The notes under the pieces are model-generated. The model was given only the letters and a program-made list of their open reading frames with translations, did no database searches and had not been told where the DNA came from. This document shows positions 7,520-38,924 of a stretch of 40,450 bases of DNA, piece by piece. The stretch is from a virus (taxonomy: Duplodnaviria; Heunggongvirae; Uroviricota; Caudoviricetes). The stretch is taken from the IMG/VR virus record IMGVR_UViG_647533158_000004; one strand, written 5' to 3'. The translations under genes were made by a program, and so were the position numbers. Numbering within the stretch: the stretch's first letter is position 1; every line of letters begins with the position of its first letter.

Positions 7520-8077
7520 GTGGGTAAGCATCACTGGAAAATAGAAAAACAGCCTGAGTGGTACGTGAAAGCTGTCAGAAAAACTATCGCGGCGTTGCCG
7601 GGGGGTTACGCTGAAGCCGCTGACTGGCTGGATGTAACAGAGAACGCTTTATTCAACCGCCTTCGTGCAGATGGCGATCAGATTTTCCCGCTGGGATGGG
7701 CAATGGTTTTACAGCGTGCTGGTGGCACTCACTTCATTGCTGATGCTGTGGCGCAGTCTGCAAATGGCGTCTTTGTGTCTCTTCCTGACGTCGAGGATGT
7801 GGACAACGCCGATATTAACCAGCGTCTGCTGGAAGTCATTGAACAGATCGGCAGTTATTCAAAACAGATTCGTTCAGCAATCGAAGACGGCGTAGTGGAA
7901 CCGCATGAGAAGACAGCAATTAACGACGAGCTGTATCTCTCAATTTCGAAGCTGCAGGAGCATGCAGCACTTGTCTACAAAATTTTTTGCATTTCAGAAA
8001 GTAATGACGCCCGCGAGTGTGCAGCTCCGGGCGTCGTGGCGTCGATTGCTTCTGGTTGTGGAGAAACTAACGCATGA
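7520..8077 (+). CDS. CII-position regulatory protein (YdaT/YmfL-like)
   Basis: GTG start at 7520 preceded by AAGGAG; 186 aa; position directly after cro. Confidence 0.65.
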
Positions 8078-8412
8078 ACAGTTTAACAACACACTACCGT
8101 CGCTCGCAACTGATTGCGCTTCCTGTACCGGGTGGAAAAGCGAAGGTGGAATATTGCTATGCAGTGAATGTACCAGGTGACAGGGAAATTGTAACCCACA
8201 GCTTTGCAGAGTGGGCTGTGGGTGATTTCAACCGGCAGAAGGAGACAGTCCTTTGCGACAAGTTAACCGCTGGTTCAAAGATCACTACGGAGTGCTCGTC
8301 AGAGTCATTCGTTGGGAGCCGGAAACACAACGGGTTATCTACCTCCGCGAAGGTTATGAGCATGAATGCTTCAGTCCGCTCGAACAGTTTCGTCGTAAAT
8401 TCAGGGAAATAG
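8074..8412 (+). CDS. Hypothetical protein (YmfM-like)
   Basis: ATGA start/stop overlap with upstream gene suggests coupling; C-terminal half is low complexity and an alternative frame looks more protein-like (see findings). Confidence 0.45.
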
Positions 8413-8421
8413 AGGTCGGTC

Positions 8422-9363
8422 ATGAGCACTAAATTAACCGGCTATGTATGGGATGGTTGCGCTGCATCAGGCATGAAGTTATCCAGCGTGGCAATTATGG
8501 CCCGCCTGGCTGATTTCAGTAATGACGAAGGTGTGTGCTGGCCATCAATTGAAACCATTGCCCGTCAGATTGGCGCGGGGATGAGTACCGTCAGAACGGC
8601 TATCGCACGGCTGGAAGCAGAAGGCTGGTTAACGCGTAAGGCGCGTCGCCAGGGTAACCGCAATGCGTCGAATGTTTATCAGCTTAACGTTGCGAAGCTT
8701 CAGGCAGCGGCATTTTCTCAACTGTCAGATTCTGACCCGTCAAAATCTGACGCATCAAAATCTGACCCGTCAAAATTTGATGCGTCGAAATCTGGCAAAA
8801 AAGCGGGTTTTCACCCGTCAGAATCTGGCGGGGATCCGTCAGTAAAATCAAAACATGATCCGTCAGATAAAAAACCTTCTCGTCCGGACGCTTCGCAACC
8901 GGACACGCAGACGGATGAACAGGATTTTTTAACTCGCCATCCTGATGCGGTTGTATTCAGCCCTAAAAAGCGCCAGTGGGGGACGCAGGATGATTTGACC
9001 TGCGCACAGTGGCTCTGGAAAAAAATCATCGCCCTGTACGAGCATGCCGCCGAATGTGACGGCGAGGTGGTTCGTCCCAAAGAACCGAACTGGACAGCCT
9101 GGGCAAACGAAATTCGCCTGATGTGTGTGCAGGATGGTCGTACTCATAAACAAATCTGCGAGATGTACAGCCGCGTCAGTCGCGATCCGTTCTGGTGCCG
9201 TAACGTGCTCAGCCCGTCGAAGCTGCGGGAAAAATGGGATGAGCTTTCCCTGCGCTTATCGCCGTCCGTCAGCACGTACACCGAAAAACGCGAAGACCCG
9301 TACTTCAAAGCCAGTTACGACAACGTGGACTACAGCCAGATCCCAGCAGGATTCAGGGGGTGA
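8422..9363 (+). CDS. Replication initiation protein (O-like, N-terminal winged HTH)
   Basis: 313 aa; HTH N-terminus, low-complexity linker encoded by tandem DNA repeats, conserved C-terminal domain. Confidence 0.8.
   Translation: MSTKLTGYVWDGCAASGMKLSSVAIMARLADFSNDEGVCWPSIETIARQIGAGMSTVRTAIARLEAEGWLTRKARRQGNRNASNVYQLNVAKLQAAAFSQLSDSDPSKSDASKSDPSKFDASKSGKKAGFHPSESGGDPSVKSKHDPSDKKPSRPDASQPDTQTDEQDFLTRHPDAVVFSPKKRQWGTQDDLTCAQWLWKKIIALYEHAAECDGEVVRPKEPNWTAWANEIRLMCVQDGRTHKQICEMYSRVSRDPFWCRNVLSPSKLREKWDELSLRLSPSVSTYTEKREDPYFKASYDNVDYSQIPAGFRG
8722..8875 (+). repeat. Iteron-like tandem repeats inside the initiator gene (putative origin)
   Basis: About eight degenerate ~15-bp units (CCGTCAAAATCTGAC-like) in tandem, followed by A-rich sequence. 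Confidence 0.55.
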
Positions 9364-9854
9364 TTATGAGTCTTTTGAATGATGTTCAGAAATTCATTGA
9401 AGCCCATCCGGGGTGTACTTCCGGAGACATTGCGGATGCTTTTGCAGGTTACTCACGGCAGCGCGTTCTGCAGTCAGCAAGCAAGTTACGTCAGAGTGGG
9501 CGTGTGGCTCACCGTTGTGAAGGAGATACACGCAGACATTTCCCGCGCCTGACTGAGAGAGCGCAGGAGTCGGAACCACAACCAGTTCGTGAAACCAGAC
9601 CTGTGCGCAATTTCTATGTCGGCACTAACGATCCCCGGGTGATTTTGTGCCTGACCCGCCAGGCGGAAGAACTGGAGTCCAGGGGCTTATACCGTCGTGC
9701 TGCAACGGTGTGGATGGCGGCATTCCGTGAAAGCCACTCCCAGCCAGAACGAAACAATTTTCTGGCGCGTCGTGAGCAGTGTTTACGGAAAAGCAGCAAG
9801 CGCGCTGTATCGGGTGATGAGTGGTATCTGTCAGGGAATTACGTGGGGGCTTAA
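9360..9854 (+). CDS. Hypothetical protein in replication module
   Basis: 164-aa ORF overlapping the stops/starts of both flanking genes; N-terminus looks like a winged helix. Confidence 0.6.
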   Translation: MIMSLLNDVQKFIEAHPGCTSGDIADAFAGYSRQRVLQSASKLRQSGRVAHRCEGDTRRHFPRLTERAQESEPQPVRETRPVRNFYVGTNDPRVILCLTRQAEELESRGLYRRAATVWMAAFRESHSQPERNNFLARREQCLRKSSKRAVSGDEWYLSGNYVGA

Positions 9855-10507
9855 TGAGTAATAAATATTGCCAGGAGCTGGTGGAACTGCGGAACAAACC
9901 AGCCCATGAACTGAAGGAAGTGGGTGATCAGTGGCGCACGCCGGACAACATTTTCTGGGGAATTAACACCCTGTTTGGCCCGTTTGTTCTGGATCTGTTC
10001 ACTGACGGTGATAACGCCAAATGTGCCGCGTATTACACGGCGGAAGACAACGCGCTGGCGCATGACTGGTCAGAACGCCTTGCGGAGCTTAAAGGTGCTG
10101 CCTTTGGTAATCCTCCATACAGCCGCGCCAGTCAGCATGAGGGGCAATACATCACCGGCATGCGTTACATCATGAAACATGCCAGTGCCATGCGTGATAA
10201 GGGCGGGCGCTATGTTTTCCTGATCAAAGCTGCCACCAGCGAAGTGTGGTGGCCGGAAGATGCAGATCATATTGCTTTTATTCGCGGGCGTATTGGTTTT
10301 GAACTGCCTGTCTGGTTTATCCCGAAAGACGAGAAGCAGATACCGACAGGAGCTTTTTTCTCTGGTGCTATTGCTGTTTTTGACAAGACCTGGAAGGGAC
10401 CGGCAATCAGCTACATCGGGCGCGATGAACTTGAGGCATGTGGTGAGGCCTTTCTGGCGCAGGTTCGCCAGCAGGCGGAAAAACTGGTCAGGGAGATGGT
10501 GGCATGA
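9854..10507 (+). CDS. Phage N6-adenine DNA methyltransferase (Dam-like, orphan)
   Basis: FGNPPYS catalytic motif; ATG 9854 overlaps upstream stop (TAATG). Confidence 0.85.
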   Translation: MSNKYCQELVELRNKPAHELKEVGDQWRTPDNIFWGINTLFGPFVLDLFTDGDNAKCAAYYTAEDNALAHDWSERLAELKGAAFGNPPYSRASQHEGQYITGMRYIMKHASAMRDKGGRYVFLIKAATSEVWWPEDADHIAFIRGRIGFELPVWFIPKDEKQIPTGAFFSGAIAVFDKTWKGPAISYIGRDELEACGEAFLAQVRQQAEKLVREMVA

Positions 10508-10830
10508 CGACATTAACTCAATGCCAGCAGCAGGTGCTGGATATGCTGATTTCTTACCAGAAAGAACGAGGCTTCCCGCCAACCAATCAGGAGGTGGCAA
10601 CCATGCTGGGATACCGTTCAGTGAATGCAGCGGTGGAGCATCTTCGCGCACTGGAGAAAAAAGGCGTCATCACGATAAAGCGTGGCGTGGCCCGGGGGAT
10701 AACGCTTCATACCGCGGTGAAGGACGACGACAGCGAGGCTGTCTGGATTATCCGCTCACTGCTTGCCGGTGAGGAAAACGCCAGGCTGCGTGCAACCCAC
10801 TGGTTACATGAGAGAGGCCTGAAAGTATGA
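10504..10830 (+). CDS. LexA-N-terminal-like winged-helix DNA-binding protein
   Basis: 108 aa; resembles the LexA DNA-binding domain without a peptidase domain. Confidence 0.55.
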   Translation: MTTLTQCQQQVLDMLISYQKERGFPPTNQEVATMLGYRSVNAAVEHLRALEKKGVITIKRGVARGITLHTAVKDDDSEAVWIIRSLLAGEENARLRATHWLHERGLKV

Positions 10831-11216
10831 AACTGATCCTGCCTTTCCCGCCCAGCGTGAATACGTACTGGCGACACCCTAACAAAGGGGCGTTTGCTGG
10901 TAAAAGCCTGATAAGCGCGGCGGGGCGCAAATTCCAGAGCGCGGCGTGCGCAGCAATAGTTGAGCAGTTACGTCGTCTTCCGAAACCAACGTCGGCACCT
11001 GCTTCAGTGGAGATCGTGTTGTTTCCTCCGGATAACCGGATCCGCGATCTGGACAACTATAACAAGGCGCTGTTTGACGCCCTGACCCACGCGGGTGTGT
11101 GGGAAGACGACAGTCAGGTGAAAAGAATGCTGGTGGAGTGGGGACCGGTTATCCCGGAAGGGAAGGTCGAGATCACTATCAGTAAGTACGAGAAAACGGC
11201 GGGTGCAGCCGCCTGA
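10827..11216 (+). CDS. rusA: Holliday junction resolvase RusA
   Basis: 129 aa; LPFPPSVNTYW ... DLDNYNKALFDALT matches the RusA family. Confidence 0.9.
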   Translation: MKLILPFPPSVNTYWRHPNKGAFAGKSLISAAGRKFQSAACAAIVEQLRRLPKPTSAPASVEIVLFPPDNRIRDLDNYNKALFDALTHAGVWEDDSQVKRMLVEWGPVIPEGKVEITISKYEKTAGAAA

Positions 11217-11235
11217 TCAAGAGGAGAAACGAAGT

Positions 11236-12045
11236 ATGAATAATCTGATGGTCATTGATGGTATTGAAGTTCGTCGTGATGCTTATGGGCGTTACAGCCT
11301 GAACGATCTGCACAGGGCAGCCGGGGGAGAACAAAAAAACCGCCCGAAATACTGGCTCTCCAATAAGCAAACCTGTGAATTGATTGAACAACTTTTCACC
11401 GAGGGTGGAATTCCGCCTATGGAACAAAATCAACCAGTTAGCGTCATTAATGGCGGAAATAACCAGGGGACGTATGTCTGCAAAGAACTGGTGTATGCCT
11501 ATGCAATGTGGATCAGCTCGTCATTCCATCTGAAGGTGATCCGTACTTTCGATATGGTAACCAGCGCACCGGAAAAATTATCTGGGCAGGCTGCTGACAA
11601 GATGCAGGCTGGTGTGATCCTGCTGGACTTTATGCGCCGGGAATTAAACCTGTCTAACTCATCAGTGCTTGGTGCCTGTCAGAAACTCCAGGAGGCTGTT
11701 GGCTTACCGAATCTGGCACCGCGCTATGCCATTGATGCTCCTGCTGACGCGCCTGATGGCTCAAGTCGCCCCACGCTGTCGCTGAGTGCACTGCTGAAAC
11801 AGTATGGTATCCGCCTGACGGCTAATCAGGCATATCACCAGATGGTGAAGCTGGGGATCGTTGAACAACGCGAACGATACAGCCGTACCGCGATTAACAA
11901 CATCAAAAAATTCTGGTCGCTGACGGCGAAAGGCTGCATGTTCGGCAAGAACATCACCAGTCCCGCAAATCCGCGCGAGACGCAGCCGCATTTCTTCGAA
12001 TCCCGATTCCCCGAGCTGTTAAAGTTGCTCGATACCGTTCATTGA
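11236..12045 (+). CDS. KilA-N domain protein (antirepressor-like)
   Basis: GAGGAG RBS then ATG at 11236; N-terminal KilA-N-like region (VIDGIEVRRDAYGRYSLNDLHRAAGG). Confidence 0.75.
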   Translation: MNNLMVIDGIEVRRDAYGRYSLNDLHRAAGGEQKNRPKYWLSNKQTCELIEQLFTEGGIPPMEQNQPVSVINGGNNQGTYVCKELVYAYAMWISSSFHLKVIRTFDMVTSAPEKLSGQAADKMQAGVILLDFMRRELNLSNSSVLGACQKLQEAVGLPNLAPRYAIDAPADAPDGSSRPTLSLSALLKQYGIRLTANQAYHQMVKLGIVEQRERYSRTAINNIKKFWSLTAKGCMFGKNITSPANPRETQPHFFESRFPELLKLLDTVH

Positions 12046-12046
12046 G

Positions 12047-13042
12047 GTGACTGTGAGAGCACTACTGACCCCTGAAATTGCCCCGCGTATGGGGATCGTA
12101 TTGTTCAGGCCCGGTTCAGAGCTGATGCCCCTGTTTATGCAGGGGCGTGTCCTGCTGGAGCCTGAGCCGGAACGTTATTCATCTTTCGCCAGTGGTGCCG
12201 TTCCCGCGGCATCACAACCGCTGGCGGATGATCCTGCCGTTCGGGCCGTGTTCCGCAATGAGGCAGTGATCCGTCGTGCTGGTGGGGTGGAATGTCTTGA
12301 AAGCTGGTTACTTCGTGAAAAAGGCTGCCAGTGGCCTCATTCCGACTGGCACAGCGAGAACATGACCACAATGCGGCACGCTCCGGGCGCAATCCGTCTC
12401 TGCTGGCACTGCGATAACCAGCTGCGCGATCAGTTCACGGAACGGCTGGAATCAATGGCAACGGATAACTGTGCCCGTTGGGTGTTGTCTGTTGTGCGTC
12501 GGGATCTCGGTTTTGATGATAGTCACGTTGTGACAATGCCGGAACTGTGCTGGTGGCTGATTCGTAATGACCTGGCGGATGCCTTACCGGAAAGTGCAGC
12601 CCGTAAGGCACTGAGATTACCGAAGCCTGTTGTGCCGTCTGTCACCCGGGAAAGTGACCTTGTGCCTTCGGTTCCTGCCACCAGCATTATCCAGGATAAA
12701 GCGAAAAAGGTGCTGGCGCTGAAAGTGGATCCGGAGTCGCCGGAGTCTTTTATGTTACGCCCAAAACGTCGCCGCTGGGTTAATGAAAAGTACACGCGCT
12801 GGGTTAAGACACAGCCGTGTGCATGTTGTGGAAAGCTTGCTGATGATCCCCACCACCTGATAGGCCACGGTCAGGGGGGAATGGGTACAAAAGCGCATGA
12901 CCTCTTTGTGTTGCCTTTGTGCAGAAAGCATCACGACGAGCTGCATGCGGATACCGTGGCATTTGAAGAGATGTATGGCTCCCAGTTGGAGCTGATATTT
13001 CGTTTTATCGATCGTGCGCTGGCAATAGGCGTACTGGCGTAA
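12047..13042 (+). CDS. DUF968 family protein with C-terminal HNH-like Cys/His motif
   Basis: C-terminus CACCGK ... DPHHL ... CRKHHDELH; typical nin-region gene. Confidence 0.75.
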   Translation: MTVRALLTPEIAPRMGIVLFRPGSELMPLFMQGRVLLEPEPERYSSFASGAVPAASQPLADDPAVRAVFRNEAVIRRAGGVECLESWLLREKGCQWPHSDWHSENMTTMRHAPGAIRLCWHCDNQLRDQFTERLESMATDNCARWVLSVVRRDLGFDDSHVVTMPELCWWLIRNDLADALPESAARKALRLPKPVVPSVTRESDLVPSVPATSIIQDKAKKVLALKVDPESPESFMLRPKRRRWVNEKYTRWVKTQPCACCGKLADDPHHLIGHGQGGMGTKAHDLFVLPLCRKHHDELHADTVAFEEMYGSQLELIFRFIDRALAIGVLA

Positions 13043-13055
13043 GTGGAGAACGAGC

Positions 13056-13808
13056 ATGAACCTTGAAGCCTTACCAAAATATTACTCCCCAAAATCTCCA
13101 AAATTGAGTGATGACGCACCGGCGACAGGCTCAGGTGGTTTAACGATTACGGATGTGATGGCTGCACAGGGGATGGTGCAGTCGAAAGCACCGCTTGGGT
13201 TTACCTTATTCCTGGCAAAAGTTGGCGTTCAGGATCCTCAGTTTGCGATTGAAGGTCTGCTCAATTACGCGATGGCACTGGATAACCCGACATTGAACAA
13301 ATTGAGTGAAGAAATCCGGTTACAGATCATCCCTTACCTTGTGAATTTTGCCTTTGCTGATTATTCCAGGTCTGCGGCAAGTAAGGCTCGCTGTGAGCAT
13401 TGTGCTGGTACTGGATTTCATAATGTATTGCGCGAGGTGGTGAAACAATCCAGAAGCGGGGAATCTGTTATCAAGGAAGAGTGGGTAAAGGAACTATGTC
13501 AGCATTGTCATGGTAAGGGAGAAGTCAGCACAGCGTGCAGAGGGTGTAAGGGTAAAGGTATTGTCCTGGATGAAAAAAGGACCCGGCTTCATGGCACGCC
13601 TGTTTATAAGATTTGTGGGCGTTGCAATGGAAACCGGTTTAGCCGTTTACCAACCACACTGGCGCGGCATCATGTCCAGAAGCTGGTACCAGACCTGACG
13701 GATTATCAGTGGTACAAAGGATATGCAGATGTCATTGATAAACTGGTTACAAAGTGCTGGCAGGAAGAAGCATATGCTGAGACACAATTGAGGAGAGTGA
13801 CAAGATAA
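13056..13808 (+). CDS. Q: Late gene antiterminator Q
   Basis: 250 aa with Cys-rich zinc-binding motifs (CEHCAGTG, CQHCHGKG, CRGCKGKG, CGRCNG); followed by promoter-plus-terminator arrangement. Confidence 0.8.
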   Translation: MNLEALPKYYSPKSPKLSDDAPATGSGGLTITDVMAAQGMVQSKAPLGFTLFLAKVGVQDPQFAIEGLLNYAMALDNPTLNKLSEEIRLQIIPYLVNFAFADYSRSAASKARCEHCAGTGFHNVLREVVKQSRSGESVIKEEWVKELCQHCHGKGEVSTACRGCKGKGIVLDEKRTRLHGTPVYKICGRCNGNRFSRLPTTLARHHVQKLVPDLTDYQWYKGYADVIDKLVTKCWQEEAYAETQLRRVTR

Positions 13809-15617: not shown

Positions 15618-16369
15618 CAGGGGCGGATTGAACGATAGCTTTTTTCGAATTGTTATTCCTAGCACATTCTGTTCAATCTGCTGAGATCTACTCTGATGTG
15701 GGAGCACAATGGGTATCGAAATGATTATCTTGCTAGCTGCTGCGTTTAGCACTGCTACCGCTAGGGTATTCGGTCTAGGATATTCATACGGTACTAGCGA
15801 AGTACAAATGAACGCTGATCAGAAGCGTTACGAATAGGAGGACTCAACATCTAGGCTATAGCAGAGCGCTGGATATAAGCAACGAAAGATACCAACAAGG
15901 TATAGCAAACTGTTAATCATATGTCTGATAGTGGCGTTGATCACGAACTGCGCACAAGTAGGACATGCAAGGTTGAGTTAATTGACACAGGGCGGGACCG
16001 GGTGAGACCTATCTGTGCGGCTGTTGATTACTTGGATGAGCTCGATAAGTAGTCAAAGAAAAATATACAGGCATACAGCAAAGTATGGATGGCAGCTGTA
16101 GATAATTGTCTGAAAATATGGTTCTTAGTTAAGTGATAATGAACTTTTAAAAAAGTTAAGCATCCTACATATGTGATGTGGGTGATAGTTGTTTGTTAGC
16201 TGTTGGGACACAACATATAGAAAGTTGAGGAGAATAATGCCTTGTTGTGCAAAAAAAGCTTGATTTGCAAGTGAGAAATATGGCTAATGGAAGAAGAGAT
16301 GTAGTAAGTGGATGTTTTATTTTGTTATTTATAGCTGTAGAATTTACCTAAAATCATAACCGCGGCTGG
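15618..16369. other. AT-rich, CTAG-rich non-coding leader of an accessory island
   Basis: ~750 bp with no ORF of 60 aa or more; at least six CTAG tetramers between 15659 and 15855, unusual for enterobacterial DNA. Confidence 0.5.
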
Positions 16370-16756
16370 ATGATAATGGGTAAGTCAAAGGGCAAAGGTG
16401 GAAAATCAGGTAAAGGGCAACATTCAGTAAGTTTTGCTCAGGCATGGCGAGATGTGATGCTCAAAGCCATGACAACCGGTCAACTAGTGCCTATAACTAT
16501 AAGTATTGTACTGATGATTGCAGCTTGGCGCATGCCATCAGAGGAATTAGGAATACTAGCGCATCGAATTATTGACGGCTTAGCAGATCACTCTCTAATT
16601 GGGTATGGACTTTGTGTCATTGTTATCCTAGCGTGGTCTTGGCATGCAAGTATGATGCGCAGATGTTTTAGCGTGGAAGCTCGTCGTATTGGAGCAGAAA
16701 AAACTCTGCATCAACAGGCGAGAACACAAGTGCCACTGGGATCAAGCGACAATTAA
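16370..16756 (+). CDS. Small membrane protein (128 aa, Lys/Gly-rich N-terminus, two predicted TM helices)
   Basis: MIMGKSKGKGGKSGKG then two hydrophobic segments; AT-rich. Confidence 0.6.
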   Translation: MIMGKSKGKGGKSGKGQHSVSFAQAWRDVMLKAMTTGQLVPITISIVLMIAAWRMPSEELGILAHRIIDGLADHSLIGYGLCVIVILAWSWHASMMRRCFSVEARRIGAEKTLHQQARTQVPLGSSDN

Positions 16757-16772
16757 TCCCTAAGGAGAAACT

Positions 16773-17351
16773 ATGCTGACAGTGCTTTTTTATGTGCTGT
16801 TATGTATGGCAGCAGTGCATTTTATTTACGAAAGGATACTACTTCCATCTGTTCGTTTGCATTACCGCAATAAGCTTTTTGAACTGAGAGATATAGTTAG
16901 AAATCAAATAATTTCGAATAAAAGTAAAGATGATGTACAAGCGGCTGAGCTTGTACATGAGGCCTTAAACAACGCAATCAATCGTTTGCACCTTATGACT
17001 TTGCCCAACAGAGTGAGGGCTCAAAGGCGGCTCAGTGCTAATCCAGAGATACAGGCAAGGATCAAACGTGAGGTTGAACTTTTTCAGAAATGTGATAACG
17101 GGAAGTTAATAGCAACGATACGAGAATCAGCTAAAATCTTGGATAAGGTTTTGCTTTTCAATAGTTTAATGTTGATTATATATTCTCTTCCAATTATGTT
17201 AACAATTTGGTCTGTGGCAAAAGTTCTGCAAACAGCCAACCAATTTTTAGAGTTACTCACTGAAAAACAAAGCCTAGAGCAGGCTGTTTTACTTCTTCCT
17301 GATAGACAGGTTGCAAAGCTTGTTGCAGAAGAAAATTATGCATATGCATGA
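16773..17351 (+). CDS. Membrane protein (192 aa, N- and C-terminal TM helices, charged helical middle)
   Basis: Strong AAGGAG RBS; followed by tandem terminators. Confidence 0.7.
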   Translation: MLTVLFYVLLCMAAVHFIYERILLPSVRLHYRNKLFELRDIVRNQIISNKSKDDVQAAELVHEALNNAINRLHLMTLPNRVRAQRRLSANPEIQARIKREVELFQKCDNGKLIATIRESAKILDKVLLFNSLMLIIYSLPIMLTIWSVAKVLQTANQFLELLTEKQSLEQAVLLLPDRQVAKLVAEENYAYA

Positions 17352-17354
17352 TGT

Positions 17355-17382
17355 AAAAACCGCCTTCGGGCGGTTTTTTATT
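17355..17382. terminator. Bidirectional rho-independent terminator
   Basis: AAAAACCGCC-TTCG-GGCGGTTTTTT. Confidence 0.75.
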
Positions 17383-17432
17383 GCTTGTCCAATGGACGGA
17401 ATCGCCTCTATATTTCCCTTCATGGGATAGAC

Positions 17433-17460
17433 TGAGCCTCGCTGATGCGAGGCTTTTTTA
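17433..17460 (+). terminator. Second rho-independent terminator
   Basis: AGCCTCG-CTGATG-CGAGGCT hairpin followed by TTTTTT. Confidence 0.6.
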
Positions 17461-17490
17461 TGCATTGATAAGCGTAAAGAGAGTCGATTA

Positions 17491-17841
17491 ATGCCACCAC
17501 GAACCCCAAAAGCCTGCCGTGTTCGCGGCTGCCGCCATACCACAACTGACCCGTCAGGCTATTGCGAAAGCCACAAAAGTGAAGGCTGGAAGCAATACAA
17601 GCCGGGCCAGTCCAGACACCAGCGCGGTTATGGTTCGAAATGGGATGTTATCCGTGAACGTGTGCTCAAGCGTGACAAAGGACTGTGTCAGCTATGTCTG
17701 CGTGGTGGTGTGGTACGTGAGGCGAAAACCGTTGACCACATCATCCCTAAAGCGCATGGCGGCACTGATGCCGACAGCAATCTGCAGAGCCTGTGCTGGC
17801 CGTGTCATAAGGCGAAGACGGCCCGTGAACGGTTGAAGTAA
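17491..17841 (+). CDS. HNH endonuclease (terminase-associated)
   Basis: 116 aa; Cys-rich N-terminus and HNH motif (DHIIPKAHGGTD ... NLQSLCWPCH); precedes terminase small subunit as in HK97-like phages. Confidence 0.85.
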   Translation: MPPRTPKACRVRGCRHTTTDPSGYCESHKSEGWKQYKPGQSRHQRGYGSKWDVIRERVLKRDKGLCQLCLRGGVVREAKTVDHIIPKAHGGTDADSNLQSLCWPCHKAKTARERLK

Positions 17842-17966
17842 GAACCAGCTCCCACTGCCACAGGGGAGGGGCGGGTCAAATCCCTGTGACCTGACGTCTT
17901 CCGGACTGCCCGCCCCATCGTTTTTTTATACCCGCGAAAAATGAAATTTAACCAGGAGTGCCGCAT

Positions 17967-34816: not shown

Positions 34817-35599
34817 ATGCATCGTATAGACACGAAAACCGCGCAGAAGGATAAGTTCGGCGCGGGTAAGAACGGTTTTACCCGTGGTAACCCCCAGACC
34901 GGCACGCCTGCCACCGATCTGGATGATGACTACTTTGACATGTTGCAGGAGGAGCTTTGCAGCGTTGTGGAGGCATCCGGTGCCAGCCTGGAGAAGGGGC
35001 GGCATGACCAGCTGCTTACCGCGCTTCGTGCGCTGCTGTTAAGCCGCAAGAATCCGTTTGGCGATATCAAATCGGATGGCACGGTGAAAACAGCTCTCGA
35101 AAACCTTGGTTTGGGAGAAGGCTCAGCATTACCCGTTGGTGTGCCTGTTCCGTGGCCTTCAGCCACTCCGCCAACAGGCTGGCTGAAATGCAACGGAGCA
35201 GCTTTTTCTGCTGAAGAATACCCGGAACTGGCAAAGGCTTATCCGACAAATAAATTACCTGATTTACGCGGTGAGTTTATTCGTGGCTGGGATGACGGAC
35301 GTGGAGTGGATAACGGAAGGGGATTATTAACGCTTCAGGACGGTGCGATTGTCAGTCATAACCACTATTGGGGAATCTGGACTTCACGAACTAACGACCA
35401 GACTCTGGGAAGTTTTACAGGCACCACGATTTTAAAACAAATCACGCCCCTGTCTCCAGCCATTGACTTCGATAATTACCCAATTCCCAACCCGGCTATT
35501 ACAGAGGGTGGTGTTGTTGCGGCAACGACTAAACCTGCAGGTGCGAATGAAACACGCCCACGAAATGTCGCTTTTAACTATATTGTGAGGGCTGCATAA
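34817..35599 (+). CDS. Tail fibre protein: constant N-terminus fused to currently expressed variable C-terminus
   Basis: 260 aa; crossover site at 35100-35120 separates constant from variable part. Confidence 0.85.
35100..35120 (+). repeat. Left inverted repeat / recombination site of the invertible segment
   Basis: AAAACCTTGGTTTGGGAGAAG; its reverse complement occurs at 36951-36971 with one mismatch. Confidence 0.85.
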
Positions 35600-36201
35600 T
35601 GAATAACGCAGAATTAAACAGTGAATTAATTGCCACTATGGCAGGAGAAATTACTGTTTATAACTTTGACGTCATGAGTCGGGAGTATATTTCAGCTTCA
35701 ACTGAATATCTTGCTGTTGGTGTCGGCATTCCGGCATATTCCTGTTTAGATGCTCCAGGCACCTACAAAGCTGGTTATGCAATCTGCCGCTCTGCAGATT
35801 TTAACTCATGGGAATATGTACCAGACCATCGCGGTGAAATCGTCTATAACACCGAAACGGGAGACGCCAAAGAAATCACAACTCCGGGTGATTACCCCGA
35901 AAAAACAACCACTATCGCCCCGTTAACGCCATACGATAAATGGGATGGTGAGAAATGGGTGACGGATACTGAGACACAGCATAGCGCCGCAGTAGACGCG
36001 GCAGAAGCACAACGTCAGTCACTGATTGATACTGCAATGGCTTCCATTAGTCTGATTCAACTGAAATTGCAGGCCGGGCGGAAGCTGATGCAGGCAGAGA
36101 CCACCCGACTTAACACTGTGCTGGATTACATTGACGCGGTGACGGCAACAGATATCAGCACCGCGCCGGATGTCATCTGGCCTGTACTGCCGGAGGCGTA
36201 G
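35599..36201 (+). CDS. Tail fibre assembly protein (orientation currently coupled to expressed fibre)
   Basis: 200 aa, coupled to the tail fibre gene; C-terminal region resembles that of the oppositely oriented chaperone. Confidence 0.85.
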   Translation: MNNAELNSELIATMAGEITVYNFDVMSREYISASTEYLAVGVGIPAYSCLDAPGTYKAGYAICRSADFNSWEYVPDHRGEIVYNTETGDAKEITTPGDYPEKTTTIAPLTPYDKWDGEKWVTDTETQHSAAVDAAEAQRQSLIDTAMASISLIQLKLQAGRKLMQAETTRLNTVLDYIDAVTATDISTAPDVIWPVLPEA

Positions 36202-36604
36202 GCCATTCAATATCTGGCGCACTGGAAGTATCGACCATTTCCAGTGCGTCCAGGTAATCCAGCCACAAATTATATTGCGCCAGTTCCTCACCTTTCAGAC
36301 GACCAATCGCCGCTTTACCAGGCCATTGTTTGCTGTTCATGTATTCGTTGGCCTGATTAACTAATCGCTGTTTATTTGATTCAGCGATTGAGATTAATTC
36401 TTCGCTGGTAAGTGGTGGCGCATCCTGCCATGCTGGAAAACCATTTTTATCTGAACCAAGTATTTTACCATCAGGCCATGCAACTCCTGCGAACTCAGAA
36501 TAAATAGTAAAGTTTATTTTCGTAGCGTTCTCAGGAATGGTTTGGCTATCTGGTGAAATATAAAATCCCGAATCAGAGGGATTAAAATAATATGTCTTTT
36601 CCAT
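36173..36604 (-). CDS. Alternative tail fibre assembly protein (inverted orientation)
   Basis: 143 aa on minus strand within invertible segment; conserved C-terminal motif (WPTPP). Confidence 0.8.
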   Translation of the reverse strand: MEKTYYFNPSDSGFYISPDSQTIPENATKINFTIYSEFAGVAWPDGKILGSDKNGFPAWQDAPPLTSEELISIAESNKQRLVNQANEYMNSKQWPGKAAIGRLKGEELAQYNLWLDYLDALEMVDTSSAPDIEWPTPPAVQAR

Positions 36605-36606
36605 AG

Positions 36607-36950
36607 TTAATACCCCACAGCCATCCAGTAAATTGAATTTGTTGTAGCAGAAGTGTAAGTAAATCTGATTTTAGTTCTGTTGGTACTTCCAATATCAAAG
36701 CCCACAGAACGGGCAGAAGGATCATTAGTTGAAATAAGAGCGTTTACCGAACGACAAGCAGCAGGGAAAGCTACAGGTAATGTTATATCAACTGTTCCAA
36801 CACTTCCTCCGGTTGGTGAGACAGAAAAACTCCCCCATTGAATAATCATCCCCCCAGGTAATTTCTGGTATCCATTGGCGGTCAATGAGTTACCAAAGCT
36901 GTTCATATCCGGTACCTGATTTTCTCCTGTCCCCACATTCCTCTTTGCCG
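36607..36950 (-). CDS. Alternative tail fibre variable C-terminal segment (expressed only after inversion)
   Basis: Minus-strand frame begins at the right inverted repeat, encoding GLGE in the same frame as the constant fibre part; lacks its own N-terminus. Confidence 0.7.
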
Positions 36951-36971
36951 CTTCTCCCAAACCAACGTTTA
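36951..36971 (-). repeat. Right inverted repeat / recombination site
   Basis: CTTCTCCCAAACCAACGTTTT, reverse complement of the left site. Confidence 0.85.
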
Positions 36972-37031
36972 TGAAAATGCAGAAATAACGAGCAAATGGC
37001 ATCATTCCTGCTTTTGTCAGGGAGATCTACC

Positions 37032-37586
37032 ATGCTTATTGGCTATGTACGTGTGTCAACAAATGACCAGAACACAGATCTACAACGTAATGCGCTGAAC
37101 TGTGCAGGATGCGAGCTGATTTTTGAAGACAAGATAAGCGGTACAAAGTCCGAAAGGCCGGGACTGAAAAAACTGCTCAGGACATTATCGGCAGGTGATA
37201 CGCTGGTGGTCTGGAAACTGGACCGACTGGGGCGCAGTATGCGGCATCTTGTCGTGCTGGTGGAGGAGTTGCGCGAACGAGGCATCAACTTTCGTAGTCT
37301 GACGGATTCAATTGATACCAGTACCCCAATGGGGCGCTTTTTCTTTCATGTGATGGGTGCCCTGGCTGAAATGGAGCGTGAACTGATTGTTGAAAGAACA
37401 AAAGCTGGACTGGAAGCTGCTCGCGCACAGGGACGAATTGGTGGACGTCGTCCCAAACTTACACCAGAACAATGGGAACAGGCCGGACGATTAATTGCAT
37501 CAGGAGTTCCTCGCCAGAAGGTGGCGATTATCTATGATGTTGGTGTGTCAACTTTGTATAAGAGGTTTCCTGCAGGGGATAAATAA
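37032..37586 (+). CDS. pin: Serine DNA invertase (Pin/Gin/Hin family)
   Basis: GGGAG then ATG at 37032; 184 aa with catalytic serine context (MLIGYVRVSTNDQ) and C-terminal HTH. Confidence 0.9.
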   Translation: MLIGYVRVSTNDQNTDLQRNALNCAGCELIFEDKISGTKSERPGLKKLLRTLSAGDTLVVWKLDRLGRSMRHLVVLVEELRERGINFRSLTDSIDTSTPMGRFFFHVMGALAEMERELIVERTKAGLEAARAQGRIGGRRPKLTPEQWEQAGRLIASGVPRQKVAIIYDVGVSTLYKRFPAGDK

Positions 37587-37692: not shown

Positions 37693-38526
37693 ATGCATGT
37701 TTTTGATAATAATGGAATTGAACTGAAAGCTGAGTGTTCGATAGGTGAAGAGGATGGTGTTTATGGTCTAATCCTTGAGTCGTGGGGGCCGGGTGACAGA
37801 AACAAAGATTACAATATCGCTCTTGATTATATCATTGAACGGTTGGTTGATTCTGGTGTATCCCAAGTCGTAGTATATCTGGCGTCATCATCAGTCAGAA
37901 AACATATGCATTCTTTGGATGAAAGAAAAATCCATCCTGGTGAATATTTTACTTTGATTGGTAATAGCCCCCGCGATATACGCTTGAAGATGTGTGGTTA
38001 TCAGGCTTATTTTAGTCGTACGGGGAGAAAGGAAATTCCTTCCGGCAATAGAACGAAACGAATATTGATAAATGTTCCAGGTATTTATAGTGACAGTTTT
38101 TGGGCGTCTATAATACGTGGAGAACTATCAGAGCTTTCACAGCCTACAGATGATGAATCGCTTCTGAATATGAGGGTTAGTAAATTAATTAAGAAAACGT
38201 TGAGTCAACCCGAGGGCTCTAGGAAACCAGTTGAGGTAGAAAGACTACAAAAAGTTTATGTCCGAGACCCGATGGTAAAAGCTTGGATTTTACAGCAAAG
38301 TAAAGGTATATGTGAAAACTGTGGTAAAAATGCTCCGTTTTATTTAAATGATGGAAACCCATATTTGGAAGTGCATCATGTAATTCCCCTGTCTTCAGGT
38401 GGTGCTGATACAACAGATAACTGTGTTGCCCTTTGTCCGAATTGCCATAGAGAATTGCACTATAGTAAAAATGCAAAAGAACTAATCGAGATGCTTTACG
38501 TTAATATAAACCGATTACAGAAATAA
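37693..38526 (+). CDS. mcrA: HNH-type restriction endonuclease McrA
   Basis: 277 aa; C-terminal HNH motif (CENCG ... HHVIPLSSGG ... CPNCH); length, pin-adjacent position and remembered sequence match e14 McrA. Confidence 0.85.
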   Translation: MHVFDNNGIELKAECSIGEEDGVYGLILESWGPGDRNKDYNIALDYIIERLVDSGVSQVVVYLASSSVRKHMHSLDERKIHPGEYFTLIGNSPRDIRLKMCGYQAYFSRTGRKEIPSGNRTKRILINVPGIYSDSFWASIIRGELSELSQPTDDESLLNMRVSKLIKKTLSQPEGSRKPVEVERLQKVYVRDPMVKAWILQQSKGICENCGKNAPFYLNDGNPYLEVHHVIPLSSGGADTTDNCVALCPNCHRELHYSKNAKELIEMLYVNINRLQK

Positions 38527-38759: not shown

Positions 38760-38924
38760 ATGTTACGCCATATGGGCTGGACTGAAGCCGCAGACCTGAT
38801 TGTTAAAGGTATGGAAGGCGCAATCAATGCGAAGACCGTAACCTATGACTTCGAGCGTCTGATGGAAGGCGCTAAACTGCTGAAATGTTCAGAATTTGGT
38901 GATGCGATCATCAAGAACATGTAA
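38760..38924 (+). pseudogene. icdC: Displaced 3' fragment of isocitrate dehydrogenase gene (icdC-like) marking the prophage right junction
   Basis: Encodes [51 protein letters not shown], the Icd C-terminus, with no upstream icd body. Confidence 0.8.

What the first reader, a model, noticed from the sequence alone, without database searches (positions are those of the whole stretch)
35100..36971. Invertible tail-fibre segment with defined crossover sites and adjacent Pin invertase
A 21-bp inverted repeat (AAAACCTTGGTTTGGGAGAAG, one mismatch between copies) lies inside the tail fibre gene and just upstream of the invertase gene. It brackets two oppositely oriented sets of fibre C-terminus plus assembly chaperone, and both fibre readings pass through the repeat in frame (ENLGLGE versus INVGLGE). 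This is the Mu G / P1 C / e14 P host-range switch design.
Basis: partly seen in the sequence, partly recalled or inferred. Interest (0 to 1): 0.5.

Follow-up and report, generated by a model that had tools for sequence, protein, structure and literature searches.

The report
e14 prophage Pin tail-fibre inversion switch
This is the long-known invertible "P" segment of the E. coli e14 prophage family, which its neighbouring Pin invertase flips to swap the tip of the phage tail fibre; it is real and intact here but ordinary.

Summary
An inverted repeat (35101-35120 / 36951-36970; 20 nt, one mismatch) brackets a 1.86-kb segment. The segment carries two opposed sets of fibre tip plus assembly chaperone. 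An intact serine invertase gene lies 54 nt outside it.

The window is a near-complete e14-like prophage at icd in E. coli. It is 100% identical to strain JNEC-KY176. PinE is 97.8% and McrA 100% identical to K-12, and the crossover sites are identical to K-12's. Each repeat is the core of a 26-bp Hin/Gin-type site (12-2-12).

Inversion is shown in silico:
- The window flipped between the core dinucleotides matches strain FHI_NMBU_10, with 2 mismatches in 11,634 nt, both outside the segment.
- Two near-clonal pig isolates differ over 22.8 kb only by the exact flip.

Published PCR, qPCR and sequencing data show the K-12 segment inverting.

What differs from K-12 is the cargo: the fibre tips are 65% and 42% identical. 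The window also sits in the opposite orientation to the MG1655 reference.

The Fis enhancer expected inside pin is only inferred, from position and conservation at synonymous sites.

The parts
34817..35599 (+). Tail-fibre gene as currently assembled (260 aa). It consists of the constant N-terminal part (34817-35105, about 96 aa), then GLGE, then a Collar-domain tip of the StfE type.
   Evidence: ORF. Pfam Collar, E = 1.6e-15. Annotated as tail fiber protein WP_000554690.1. Residues 1-105 are 97% identical to K-12 StfP, and the tip is 65% identical to K-12 StfE.
35094..35119 (.). Left crossover site (pixL-equivalent): CTCTCGAAAACC-TT-GGTTTGGGAGAA. The 2-bp core is at 35106-35107. The inner half-site encodes G-L-G-E.
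   Evidence: Identical to the site in K-12 e14, and same layout as Mu gix TTATCCAAAACC-TC-GGTTTACAGGAA.
35106..36965 (.). Invertible segment, from core dinucleotide to core dinucleotide (cores 1858 bp apart).
   Evidence: The in-silico flip of exactly this interval gives a 100% match over 2770 nt to NZ_CP046539.1. It gives 2 mismatches in 11,634 nt with the flanks included. A near-clonal pair differs only by this flip.
35599..36201 (+). Tail-fibre assembly chaperone for the currently expressed tip (TfaE type, 200 aa).
   Evidence: Pfam Caudo_TAP, E = 3.6e-29. 85% identical to K-12 TfaE.
36173..36604 (-). Tail-fibre assembly chaperone of the silent cassette (TfaP type, 143 aa). Its 3' end overlaps the other tfa gene by 29 bp.
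   Evidence: Pfam Caudo_TAP, E = 4.7e-30. The C-terminal half is 67% identical to K-12 TfaP.
36607..36963 (-). Silent alternative fibre tip (Gp53-like_C, StfP type). After inversion it joins the constant part to give a 215-aa fibre. In the present orientation an ORF runs on to an ATG at 37005.
   Evidence: Pfam Gp53-like_C, E = 9e-19. A 648-nt (215-codon) CDS at the same position is annotated in the flipped strain FHI_NMBU_10, whose DNA here matches the in-silico flip 100%.
36952..36977 (.). Right crossover site (pixR-equivalent): TTCTCCCAAACC-AA-CGTTTATGAAAA. The core is at 36964-36965. The site ends 54 nt upstream of the pin start codon.
   Evidence: The same site lies 54-55 nt upstream of pin in about 75 of 79 related loci, and 48 of them carry the identical sequence.
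37032..37586 (+). pinE: DNA invertase, a small serine recombinase of 184 aa.
   Evidence: Pfam Resolvase, E = 1.5e-51, plus HTH_7, E = 1.4e-13. Phmmer E = 5.5e-95 to the Gin structure 3UJ3. 79.6% identical to Mu Gin. Y5, R7, S9, D64, R65 and R68 are present. 97.8% identical to K-12 PinE.
37053..37116 (.). Candidate Fis-dependent recombinational enhancer inside the 5' end of pin (inferred). It consists of two G-N13-C 15-mers, at 37053-37067 and 37102-37116, forming the ends of a 64-bp stretch.
   Evidence: Nucleotides 25-33 and 35-41 of pin (window 37056-37064, 37066-37072) are invariant in 64 distinct homologues, Mu gin included, with nt 34 conserved in at least 90%. Synonymous diversity is lower in codons 1-40 (0.21 against 0.31). 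The consensus scan listed only the second 15-mer (0 deviations in pin and gin); the first 15-mer was read from the printed sequence and deviates from the inner consensus at four positions. The published Hin enhancer is 65 bp, has a Fis site at each end, and lies about 100 bp from hixL (PMC3798978). Not demonstrated here.

Best explanation
**What it is.** The region is the P-inversion switch of an e14-family prophage.

**Layout.** The fibre gene is split by a 26-bp recombination site. The first ~96 codons (34817-35105) lie outside the invertible segment and are always transcribed from the late tail operon. Inside the 1.86-kb segment sit two alternative tips, each followed by its own Tfa assembly chaperone, in opposite orientations.

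**Mechanism (inferred from the Hin/Gin family).** PinE is encoded just outside the right-hand site. PinE dimers bind the two sites. Together with host Fis bound to an enhancer in the 5' end of pin, they form an invertasome. The catalytic Ser9 makes staggered cuts at the 2-bp core (TT/AA at 35106-7 and 36964-5). One subunit pair rotates by 180 degrees and the DNA is religated with the segment inverted.

**Consequence.** The inner half-site GGTTTGGGAGAA is in frame as Gly-Leu-Gly-Glu in both cassettes. Either orientation therefore yields a complete fibre:
- 260 aa with a Collar-domain tip, plus the 200-aa chaperone (the present state).
- 215 aa with a Gp53-like tip, plus the 143-aa chaperone (the flipped state).

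A lysogen population therefore produces particles with two receptor specificities.

**Shown here:** the anatomy, the intact enzyme, both orientations in nature, and exact flipping between near-clonal genomes.

**Inferred:** the Fis/enhancer dependence, the cleavage position within the 15-nt identical stretch, and the host-range consequence.
For: **Anatomy.**
- The repeat is far beyond chance (0 of 100 shuffles gave any match).
- The sites have the same 12-2-12 layout as Mu gix and are identical to those of K-12 e14.
- They are the only two such sites in the 40-kb window.
- Pfam assigns every gene as expected.

**Enzyme.**
- PinE matches the Gin crystal structures with E = 5.5e-95 and carries the catalytic serine.
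- It differs from experimentally active K-12 PinE at 4 residues, and at 2 of these it carries the Gin residue.

**Identity with e14.**
- Same chromosomal locus: icd ... mcrA - icd' - iraM.
- McrA is 100% identical to K-12.

**Inversion.**
- 23 complete E. coli genomes hold at least 80% of the region in the window's orientation. 13 hold the in-silico flipped version, one of them at 100% identity over 2770 nt.
- The flipped window against FHI_NMBU_10 gives 2 mismatches in 11,634 nt, both outside the segment.
- Pig isolates LCP30S3_I5 and HCP5S3_I2 are identical over 22,768 nt once the segment is flipped between the cores.
- Among the 61 IMG/VR loci where both sites were found (of 80 fetched), the commonest cassette pairing has the Collar tip expressed in 19 loci and the Gp53 tip expressed in 9.
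- Partner sites covary in their core and inner half-site: AA/TT in some loci, GA/TC in others.

**Literature.**
- PCR and sequencing show both orientations coexisting in clonal K-12 cultures (PMC4272514).
- qPCR shows about 30% inversion in wild type. PinE overproduction raises this to 49%. pinE and pinE pinQ mutants are locked (PMC12529663).
Against: - No reads or cultures of this strain were available, so switching in this particular lysogen is inferred from other genomes.
- The enhancer is not demonstrated. A degenerate Fis-consensus scan gives many hits and is uninformative. The lower synonymous diversity at the 5' end could have other causes, and the sequences compared are not independent.
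- In K-12 another invertase, PinQ from prophage Qin, inverts the same segment more efficiently than PinE. The adjacent gene need not be the main driver.
- An IS3 interrupts an HNH endonuclease gene next to the terminase genes. This prophage may not make infectious particles, in which case host range would be moot.
Confidence: 0.95

Rival explanations
1. The repeat is only a conserved fibre-module junction motif (the 'GLGE' box), retained by descent and by cassette shuffling. The segment no longer inverts in this element.
For: Shigella phage SfII keeps the left site inside its fibre gene but has no right site and no invertase. Megablast homology between the window and the Sf phages ends at about window 35120, the inner edge of the site. 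The motif therefore does mark a module boundary.
Against: This window has two sites in inverted orientation and an intact invertase. The identical allele exists in both orientations. A near-clonal pair differs only by the flip.
Confidence: 0.02
2. The inversion is carried out by host homologous recombination (RecA) between the short inverted repeats, not by site-specific recombination.
For: Sequence comparison alone only places the exchange somewhere within the 15-nt identical stretch 35106-35120.
Against: From established knowledge, 15 nt of identity is below the minimum usually needed for efficient RecA recombination. The sites have the full 26-bp invertase architecture, extending beyond the identical stretch. 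Core and inner half-site covary across loci. K-12 pinE and pinE pinQ mutants are locked in one orientation (PMC12529663).
Confidence: 0.01
3. The segment inverts, but mainly through a Pin-family invertase encoded elsewhere in the genome (PinQ/PinR type) acting in trans. Its selected role in the lysogen is host defence rather than phage host range. In the present orientation the outside-in ORF 36607-37005 is the positional equivalent of K-12 'StfE2', which is reported to block phage T2 adsorption.
For: - PMC12529663 reports that PinQ gives 88% inversion against 49% for PinE.
- The same paper reports that the inverted state protects K-12 from T2 through StfE2.
- The window is in that 'inverted' state relative to MG1655.
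- The window has the equivalent 132-aa ORF, starting MMPFARYFCIFINVGLGE.
Against: - The tip of the window's ORF is only 42% identical to the K-12 StfP tip.
- No promoter-like site was found for it on the minus strand near 37005-37100.
- Unlike K-12 e14, this prophage keeps a full structural module, so the classical host-range role is still available.
- Nothing about other invertases can be seen from this window.
Confidence: 0.1

Closest known systems
e14 prophage P segment / PinE of E. coli K-12 (stfP-tfaP / tfaE-stfE, pinE; Plasterk & van de Putte 1985, as cited in PMC4272514 and PMC12529663)
   Same: - Same chromosomal locus: icd attachment site, with mcrA, icd' and iraM downstream.
- Identical 26-bp crossover sites.
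- PinE 97.8% and McrA 100% identical; constant fibre part 97% identical.
- Same gene order, including the 29-bp convergent overlap of the two tfa genes.
   Different: - The cargo alleles differ: Collar tip 65%, Gp53-like tip 42%, TfaE 85% identical, and TfaP 67% over its C-terminal half only.
- The cores are 1858 bp apart, against 1827 in K-12.
- The window is in the opposite orientation to the MG1655 reference.
- The surrounding prophage is nearly full length, with head, tail and lysis genes. K-12 e14 is a 15-kb remnant.
Phage Mu G segment / Gin
   Same: - Same design: Sc-Sv-U / U'-Sv' with gin adjacent.
- Gin is 79.6% identical to this Pin.
- gix and the window's sites share the 12-2-12 layout and the AAACC-NN-GGTTT centre.
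- The tail and baseplate genes are Mu-like: Mu Gp48, Baseplate_J, Gp46.
   Different: - The G segment is about 3 kb and its fibres are about 500 aa. Here the segment is 1.86 kb and the fibres are 215 and 260 aa.
- The core dinucleotide differs: TC/GA in Mu, TT/AA here.
- The fibre tips were not compared with Mu S/S'.
Salmonella Hin / hix H-inversion system
   Same: Same recombinase subfamily. Both have 26-bp sites and an enhancer inside the recombinase gene about 100 bp from the nearest site (PMC3798978). The Hin DNA-binding domain matches Pin residues 139-182.
   Different: Hin inverts a promoter, and hin itself, to switch flagellin expression. Here the invertase gene lies outside the segment and the switch works by gene fusion within a coding sequence.
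Shigella flexneri serotype-converting phages SfII / SfI / SfIV / SfV
   Same: The structural module is 97-98% identical to the window up to about 35120. The fibre N-terminus and the left site are the same. The SfII fibre is 67% identical to the predicted flipped fibre.
   Different: In SfII there is a single fixed tip-plus-chaperone cassette, no right site and no invertase.

Membership tests
Hin/Gin/Cin/Pin DNA invertases (enhancer-dependent small serine recombinases) | Protein of about 180-190 aa with an N-terminal serine-recombinase catalytic domain (Ser9/10 nucleophile) and a C-terminal HTH. | tested here: met
   Pfam Resolvase, E = 1.5e-51, plus HTH_7, E = 1.4e-13. E = 5.5e-95 to Gin structures 3UJ3/4M6F over residues 1-181. 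Y5, R7, S9, D64, R65 and R68 are present.
Hin/Gin/Cin/Pin DNA invertases (enhancer-dependent small serine recombinases) | Two 26-bp sites in inverted orientation. Each has two imperfect 12-bp half-sites around a 2-bp core, and the cores match. | tested here: met
   35094-35119 is CTCTCGAAAACC-TT-GGTTTGGGAGAA. 36952-36977 is TTCTCCCAAACC-AA-CGTTTATGAAAA. The layout equals that of Mu gix. Core and inner half-site covary across related loci.
Hin/Gin/Cin/Pin DNA invertases (enhancer-dependent small serine recombinases) | A cis-acting recombinational enhancer with two Fis sites, in the 5' part of the invertase gene about 100 bp from the nearest site. | tested here: inconclusive
   The candidate is 37053-37116. 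Its nearer 15-mer is centred about 95 bp from the core. Nucleotides 25-33 and 35-41 of pin are invariant across 64 distinct homologues. Synonymous diversity is 0.21 in codons 1-40 against 0.31 elsewhere (Mann-Whitney p = 0.002; the sequences are not independent). The Fis-consensus scan is too degenerate to decide.
Hin/Gin/Cin/Pin DNA invertases (enhancer-dependent small serine recombinases) | The segment actually inverts, exactly at the sites. | tested here: met
   Comparative evidence only. The flipped allele exists at 100% identity. A near-clonal pair differs solely by the exact flip. The K-12 allele has been shown to invert experimentally. Not tested in this strain.
Phage tail-fibre host-range inversion cassettes (Mu G, P1 C, e14 P) | A constant fibre N-terminus outside the segment, fused in frame to either of two opposed variable C-termini inside it. 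| tested here: met
   The fibre is 260 aa as found and 215 aa after the flip, both open through GLGE. A CDS of each length is annotated at this position in a natural genome of the corresponding orientation.
Phage tail-fibre host-range inversion cassettes (Mu G, P1 C, e14 P) | Each variable tip is followed by its own tail-fibre assembly chaperone. | tested here: met
   Two Caudo_TAP proteins, one per orientation.
Phage tail-fibre host-range inversion cassettes (Mu G, P1 C, e14 P) | The two orientations give different adsorption specificity. | not testable with these tools
   The tips belong to different Pfam families, Collar and Gp53-like_C. This is suggestive only.
e14 prophage (E. coli, icd-integrated) | Integration in icd with a duplicated icd 3' end, and pinE-mcrA at the right end. 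| tested here: met
   The icd' fragment is at 38760-38924, and iraM, ymgK, ymgL and ycgX follow. The order is the same in MG1655. McrA is 100% and PinE 97.8% identical to K-12.

The most novel reading that the evidence does not exclude
In this lysogen the switch may serve the host as well as the phage. The window is in the orientation that, in K-12, creates the chimeric 'StfE2' protein reported to block T2 adsorption. Here the equivalent 132-aa ORF (36607-37005, minus strand) carries a strongly diverged tip, 42% identical. It could therefore mask a different receptor and protect against a different set of phages. On that reading, the many cassette alleles would be a phase-variable repertoire of adsorption blockers.
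Probability: 0.08. Interest if true: 0.45.

Novelty: already known. Interest (0 to 1): 0.1.

Why it matters
The main value is correct annotation.
- The 132-aa 'gp53-like' ORF and the 260-aa fibre are two states of one phase-variable fibre gene.
- The orientation recorded in an assembly is a snapshot, not a fixed property of the strain.
- The locus shows how diverse the tip cassettes are within the e14/SfV phage group, with segments of 1.5-3.5 kb between conserved sites. This is relevant to predicting or engineering host range.
- It bears on the recent claim that the inverted state of e14 protects K-12 from phage T2.

No open question becomes newly testable through this window.

Tried and rejected
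- **Fis-consensus scan** (GNNYRNNWNNYRNNC, up to 2 deviations) over the pin and gin 5' regions. It gave many hits in both and cannot locate the enhancer. I replaced it with a test of conservation at synonymous sites, which is supportive but not decisive.
- **Primary papers** with the published pix, cix and hix sequences and Fis sites: Plasterk & van de Putte 1985 (PMC554175), Johnson 2015 (PMC4384473), Hengen 1997 (PMC147151), Hübner & Arber 1989 (PMC400844) and Mehta 2004 (PMC331406). None is held. As a result cix and hix were not aligned. Only gix from Mu and the K-12 sites were compared.
- **Additional internal crossover sites**, which would indicate a multiple-inversion system of the p15B/Min type. 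None was found in the window or in related loci.
- **NCBIfam** has no model at cut-off for Pin or the fibre proteins, so it was uninformative.
- **Promoter scan**. It found 12 sites against 8.2 +/- 2.7 in shuffles, with no convincing promoter for pin or for the minus-strand ORF. No conclusion was drawn.
- **RecA-mediated inversion and 'fossil motif'** readings were considered and rejected; see the rival explanations.
Full report
**1. The observation**

The quoted 21-mer AAAACCTTGGTTTGGGAGAAG lies at 35100-35120. Its only other near-match in the 40,450-nt window is on the opposite strand at 36951-36971, with two mismatches. None of 100 dinucleotide-preserving shuffles produced any match. The repeat finder reports it as a 20-nt inverted repeat, 35101-35120 / 36951-36970, 95% complementary, with 1830 nt between the arms.

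Both quoted peptide readings exist:
- ...[16 protein letters not shown]... in the + strand ORF 34817-35599 (260 aa).
- ...FINVGLGEAAKRNV... in the - strand ORF 36607-37005 (132 aa).

**2. What the genes are**

Pfam assigns the following:
- The 260-aa protein has a phage tail Collar domain.
- 35599-36201 (+) is a Caudo_TAP tail-fibre assembly protein.
- 36173-36604 (-) is also a Caudo_TAP tail-fibre assembly protein.
- 36607-37005 (-) has a Gp53-like fibre C-terminal domain.
- 37032-37586 (+) has Resolvase plus HTH_7.
- The genes upstream are Mu-like baseplate proteins (Baseplate_J, Mu Gp48).

The invertase matches the crystal structures of Mu Gin (3UJ3, 4M6F) with E = 5.5e-95 over residues 1-181. 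It is 79.6% identical to Gin in the Mu genome. The serine nucleophile S9 is present, as are Y5, R7, D64, R65 and R68. There is no frameshift or premature stop.

**3. Where the window comes from**

The region is 100% identical to E. coli JNEC-KY176. The annotated record shows a nearly complete prophage running from intE through regulatory, replication, lysis, terminase, HK97-type head and Mu-type contractile tail genes to the fibre, pinE and mcrA. A truncated icd copy follows, then iraM, ymgK, ymgL and ycgX. That is the position and right-end gene order of prophage e14 in K-12 MG1655.

Compared with K-12:
- PinE is 97.8% identical.
- McrA is 100% identical.
- The constant fibre part is 97% identical.
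- Both crossover sites are identical.

The cargo is diverged:
- The Collar-type tip is 65% identical to StfE.
- The Gp53-type tip is 42% identical to the StfP tip.
- TfaE is 85% identical.
- TfaP is 67% identical over its C-terminal half only.
- The cores are 1858 bp apart, against 1827 in K-12.

MG1655 is recorded with stfP-tfaP in the expressed position. The window has the StfE-type tip and TfaE-type chaperone expressed, which is the opposite orientation.

**4. The sites**

Extending the repeat outward gives two 26-bp sites:
- 35094-35119: CTCTCGAAAACC-TT-GGTTTGGGAGAA.
- 36952-36977: TTCTCCCAAACC-AA-CGTTTATGAAAA.

The G-segment boundaries annotated in phage Mu fall in sites of the same 12-2-12 form:
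- TTATCCAAAACC-TC-GGTTTACAGGAA.
- TTCCTGTAAACC-GA-GGTTTTGGATAA.

The AAACC-NN-(G/C)GTTT centre occurs nowhere else in the window, so this is a simple two-site switch and not a multiple-inversion system. The inner half-site GGT TTG GGA GAA is read as G-L-G-E in both cassettes. That is why either orientation stays in frame.

**5. Does it invert?**

I reverse-complemented 35106-36965 in silico and searched the 5,426 complete E. coli genomes.
- The native arrangement is held at 80% coverage or more by 23 genomes.
- The flipped arrangement is held by 13 genomes. One of them, FHI_NMBU_10, matches at 100.0% over all 2770 nt in one piece.

FHI_NMBU_10 carries the same prophage at the same locus, with identical protein accessions for the flanking genes, including PinE WP_000905000.1. 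Over the 11,634 nt that overlap, the flipped window differs from it at 2 positions, both outside the segment (32345 and 39935). The unflipped window differs at 1398 positions.

Two pig faecal isolates from one study have chromosomes of 5,270,552 and 5,270,553 bp and carry a related prophage. They are identical over 22,768 nt once the segment is flipped between the core dinucleotides.

The mismatched outer positions, 35105 C against G, stay with the flanks. The exchange therefore lies within the 15-nt identical stretch 35106-35120. That is consistent with cleavage at the core, though the sequence data cannot resolve it to the core.

**6. The wider family**

I fetched eighty IMG/VR loci encoding Pin relatives at 87-100% identity.
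- Nearly all have the proximal site 54-55 nt upstream of the pin start codon. 48 carry the identical 26-mer.
- An inverted partner lies 1.5-3.5 kb upstream.
- Where the proximal core is GA, the distal core is TC, and the inner half-sites change together.
- Both orientations are common. In the commonest cassette pairing the Collar tip is expressed in 19 loci and the Gp53-type tip in 9. Many other tip alleles occur.

**7. The enhancer (inferred)**

Invertases of this subfamily need a 65-bp enhancer with a Fis site at each end. In Salmonella it lies about 100 bp from hixL, inside hin (PMC3798978).

A degenerate Fis-consensus scan was uninformative. Across 64 distinct pin/gin sequences, pairwise synonymous diversity is 0.21 in codons 1-40 against 0.31 in the rest (Mann-Whitney p = 0.002; the sequences are phylogenetically related, so this is indicative only). 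Nucleotides 25-33 and 35-41 of pin (window 37056-37064 and 37066-37072) are invariant, third codon positions included, and nt 34 is conserved in at least 90%.

Two G-N13-C 15-mers, at 37053-37067 and 37102-37116, bracket a 64-bp stretch whose near end is about 95 bp from the core. Only the second was returned by the scan; the first I read from the printed sequence, and it deviates from the inner consensus at four positions. I list this as a candidate enhancer. It is not demonstrated.

**8. Comparison with what is known**

The e14 invertible P segment and Pin have been known since the 1980s (Plasterk & van de Putte 1985, cited).
- Coexistence of both orientations in clonal K-12 cultures has been shown by sequencing and PCR (PMC4272514).
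- A 2025 paper measured about 30% inversion in wild type, 49% with PinE overproduced and 88% with PinQ overproduced. It found locked orientation in pinE and pinE pinQ mutants, and inversions in 33% of 562 deposited genomes. It attributes T2 resistance to a chimeric protein, StfE2, made in the inverted state (PMC12529663).

The window's 132-aa ORF is the positional equivalent of StfE2, but its tip is 42% identical. I found no promoter-like site for it. I keep this only as the low-probability novel reading.

**9. Rivals**

- *Fossil module-junction motif.* Shigella phage SfII retains only the left site and has no invertase, and homology with the Sf phages stops at about 35120. Here, however, both sites, the enzyme and both orientations are present.
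- *RecA-mediated inversion.* This is unlikely with 15 nt of identity. It is also contradicted by the locked K-12 invertase mutants.
- *Action in trans by other Pin paralogues.* This is plausible and complements PinE rather than replacing it.

**10. Verdict**

The feature is an allele of a textbook system, in the opposite orientation to the K-12 reference and with diverged fibre tips. Novelty: already known. Interest: low.

Noticed in passing
window 16231-17842 (L001 1415-3026): An IS3-family element (transposase at about 16455-17617) splits an HNH endonuclease gene immediately upstream of the P27-family small terminase gene. In HK97-like phages such HNH proteins usually assist terminase in cos cleavage (from general knowledge). 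This otherwise complete-looking prophage may therefore be packaging-defective.
   Followed up: no
window 35120; L088 (SfII) 1755-1780: Megablast homology to Shigella phages SfII, SfI, SfIV and SfV (97-98%) ends at about 35120, the inner edge of the left crossover site. SfII keeps that site inside its fibre gene but has one fixed tip-plus-chaperone cassette, no right site and no invertase. The site therefore doubles as a module-exchange boundary.
   Followed up: partly
window 36607-37005 (-): In the present orientation the silent Gp53-type tip is part of a 132-aa ORF. The ORF starts at an ATG-ATG in the pin-proximal flank, with AGGA directly upstream. It is the positional equivalent of K-12 'StfE2', reported to block T2 adsorption (PMC12529663). 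RefSeq annotates it as a separate 'gp53-like domain-containing protein'.
   Followed up: partly
window 36173-36201; 36120-36137 / 36246-36263: The two convergent tfa genes overlap by 29 bp at their 3' ends, as in K-12. An 18-nt inverted repeat (89% complementary) flanks the overlap. It appears to reflect the conserved Tfa C-terminal motif (LDYIDA / LDYLDA) encoded on opposite strands.
   Followed up: no
window 37693-38526 and 38760-38924: mcrA (Type IV 5-methylcytosine restriction endonuclease, HNH) is 100% identical at protein level to K-12 McrA. The truncated icd 3' copy (icdC) marks the right prophage-host junction.
   Followed up: partly
L005 / L006 (NZ_CM149862.1, NZ_CM149870.1), locus positions 8077-13604: A related prophage sits at a different chromosomal site, near paoCD and ykgR. 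It has an IS3 inside ymfQ and a GIY-YIG (LEM-3-like) gene where mcrA sits here. Its fibre segment still differs by an exact flip between two near-clonal isolates, so the switch keeps flipping in a prophage with a disrupted baseplate gene.
   Followed up: partly
L014, L029, L038, L045, L046, L066, L076: Six Pin-encoding IMG/VR loci have the proximal site but no partner with 2 or fewer mismatches within about 3.9 kb upstream. They may have larger segments, a diverged partner or a lost partner. L076 has no recognisable proximal site despite 4 kb of upstream sequence.
   Followed up: no
L089 (ON470584.1, Escherichia phage vB_EcoM-689R6) 1-4500: A deposited phage record covers 77% of window 14000-37600 at 97.4% identity and encodes a Pin 96.7% identical, with mcrA alongside. 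This suggests that e14-like elements of this kind can be recovered as phage. The record is partial and its fibre region is arranged differently around the record ends.
   Followed up: no
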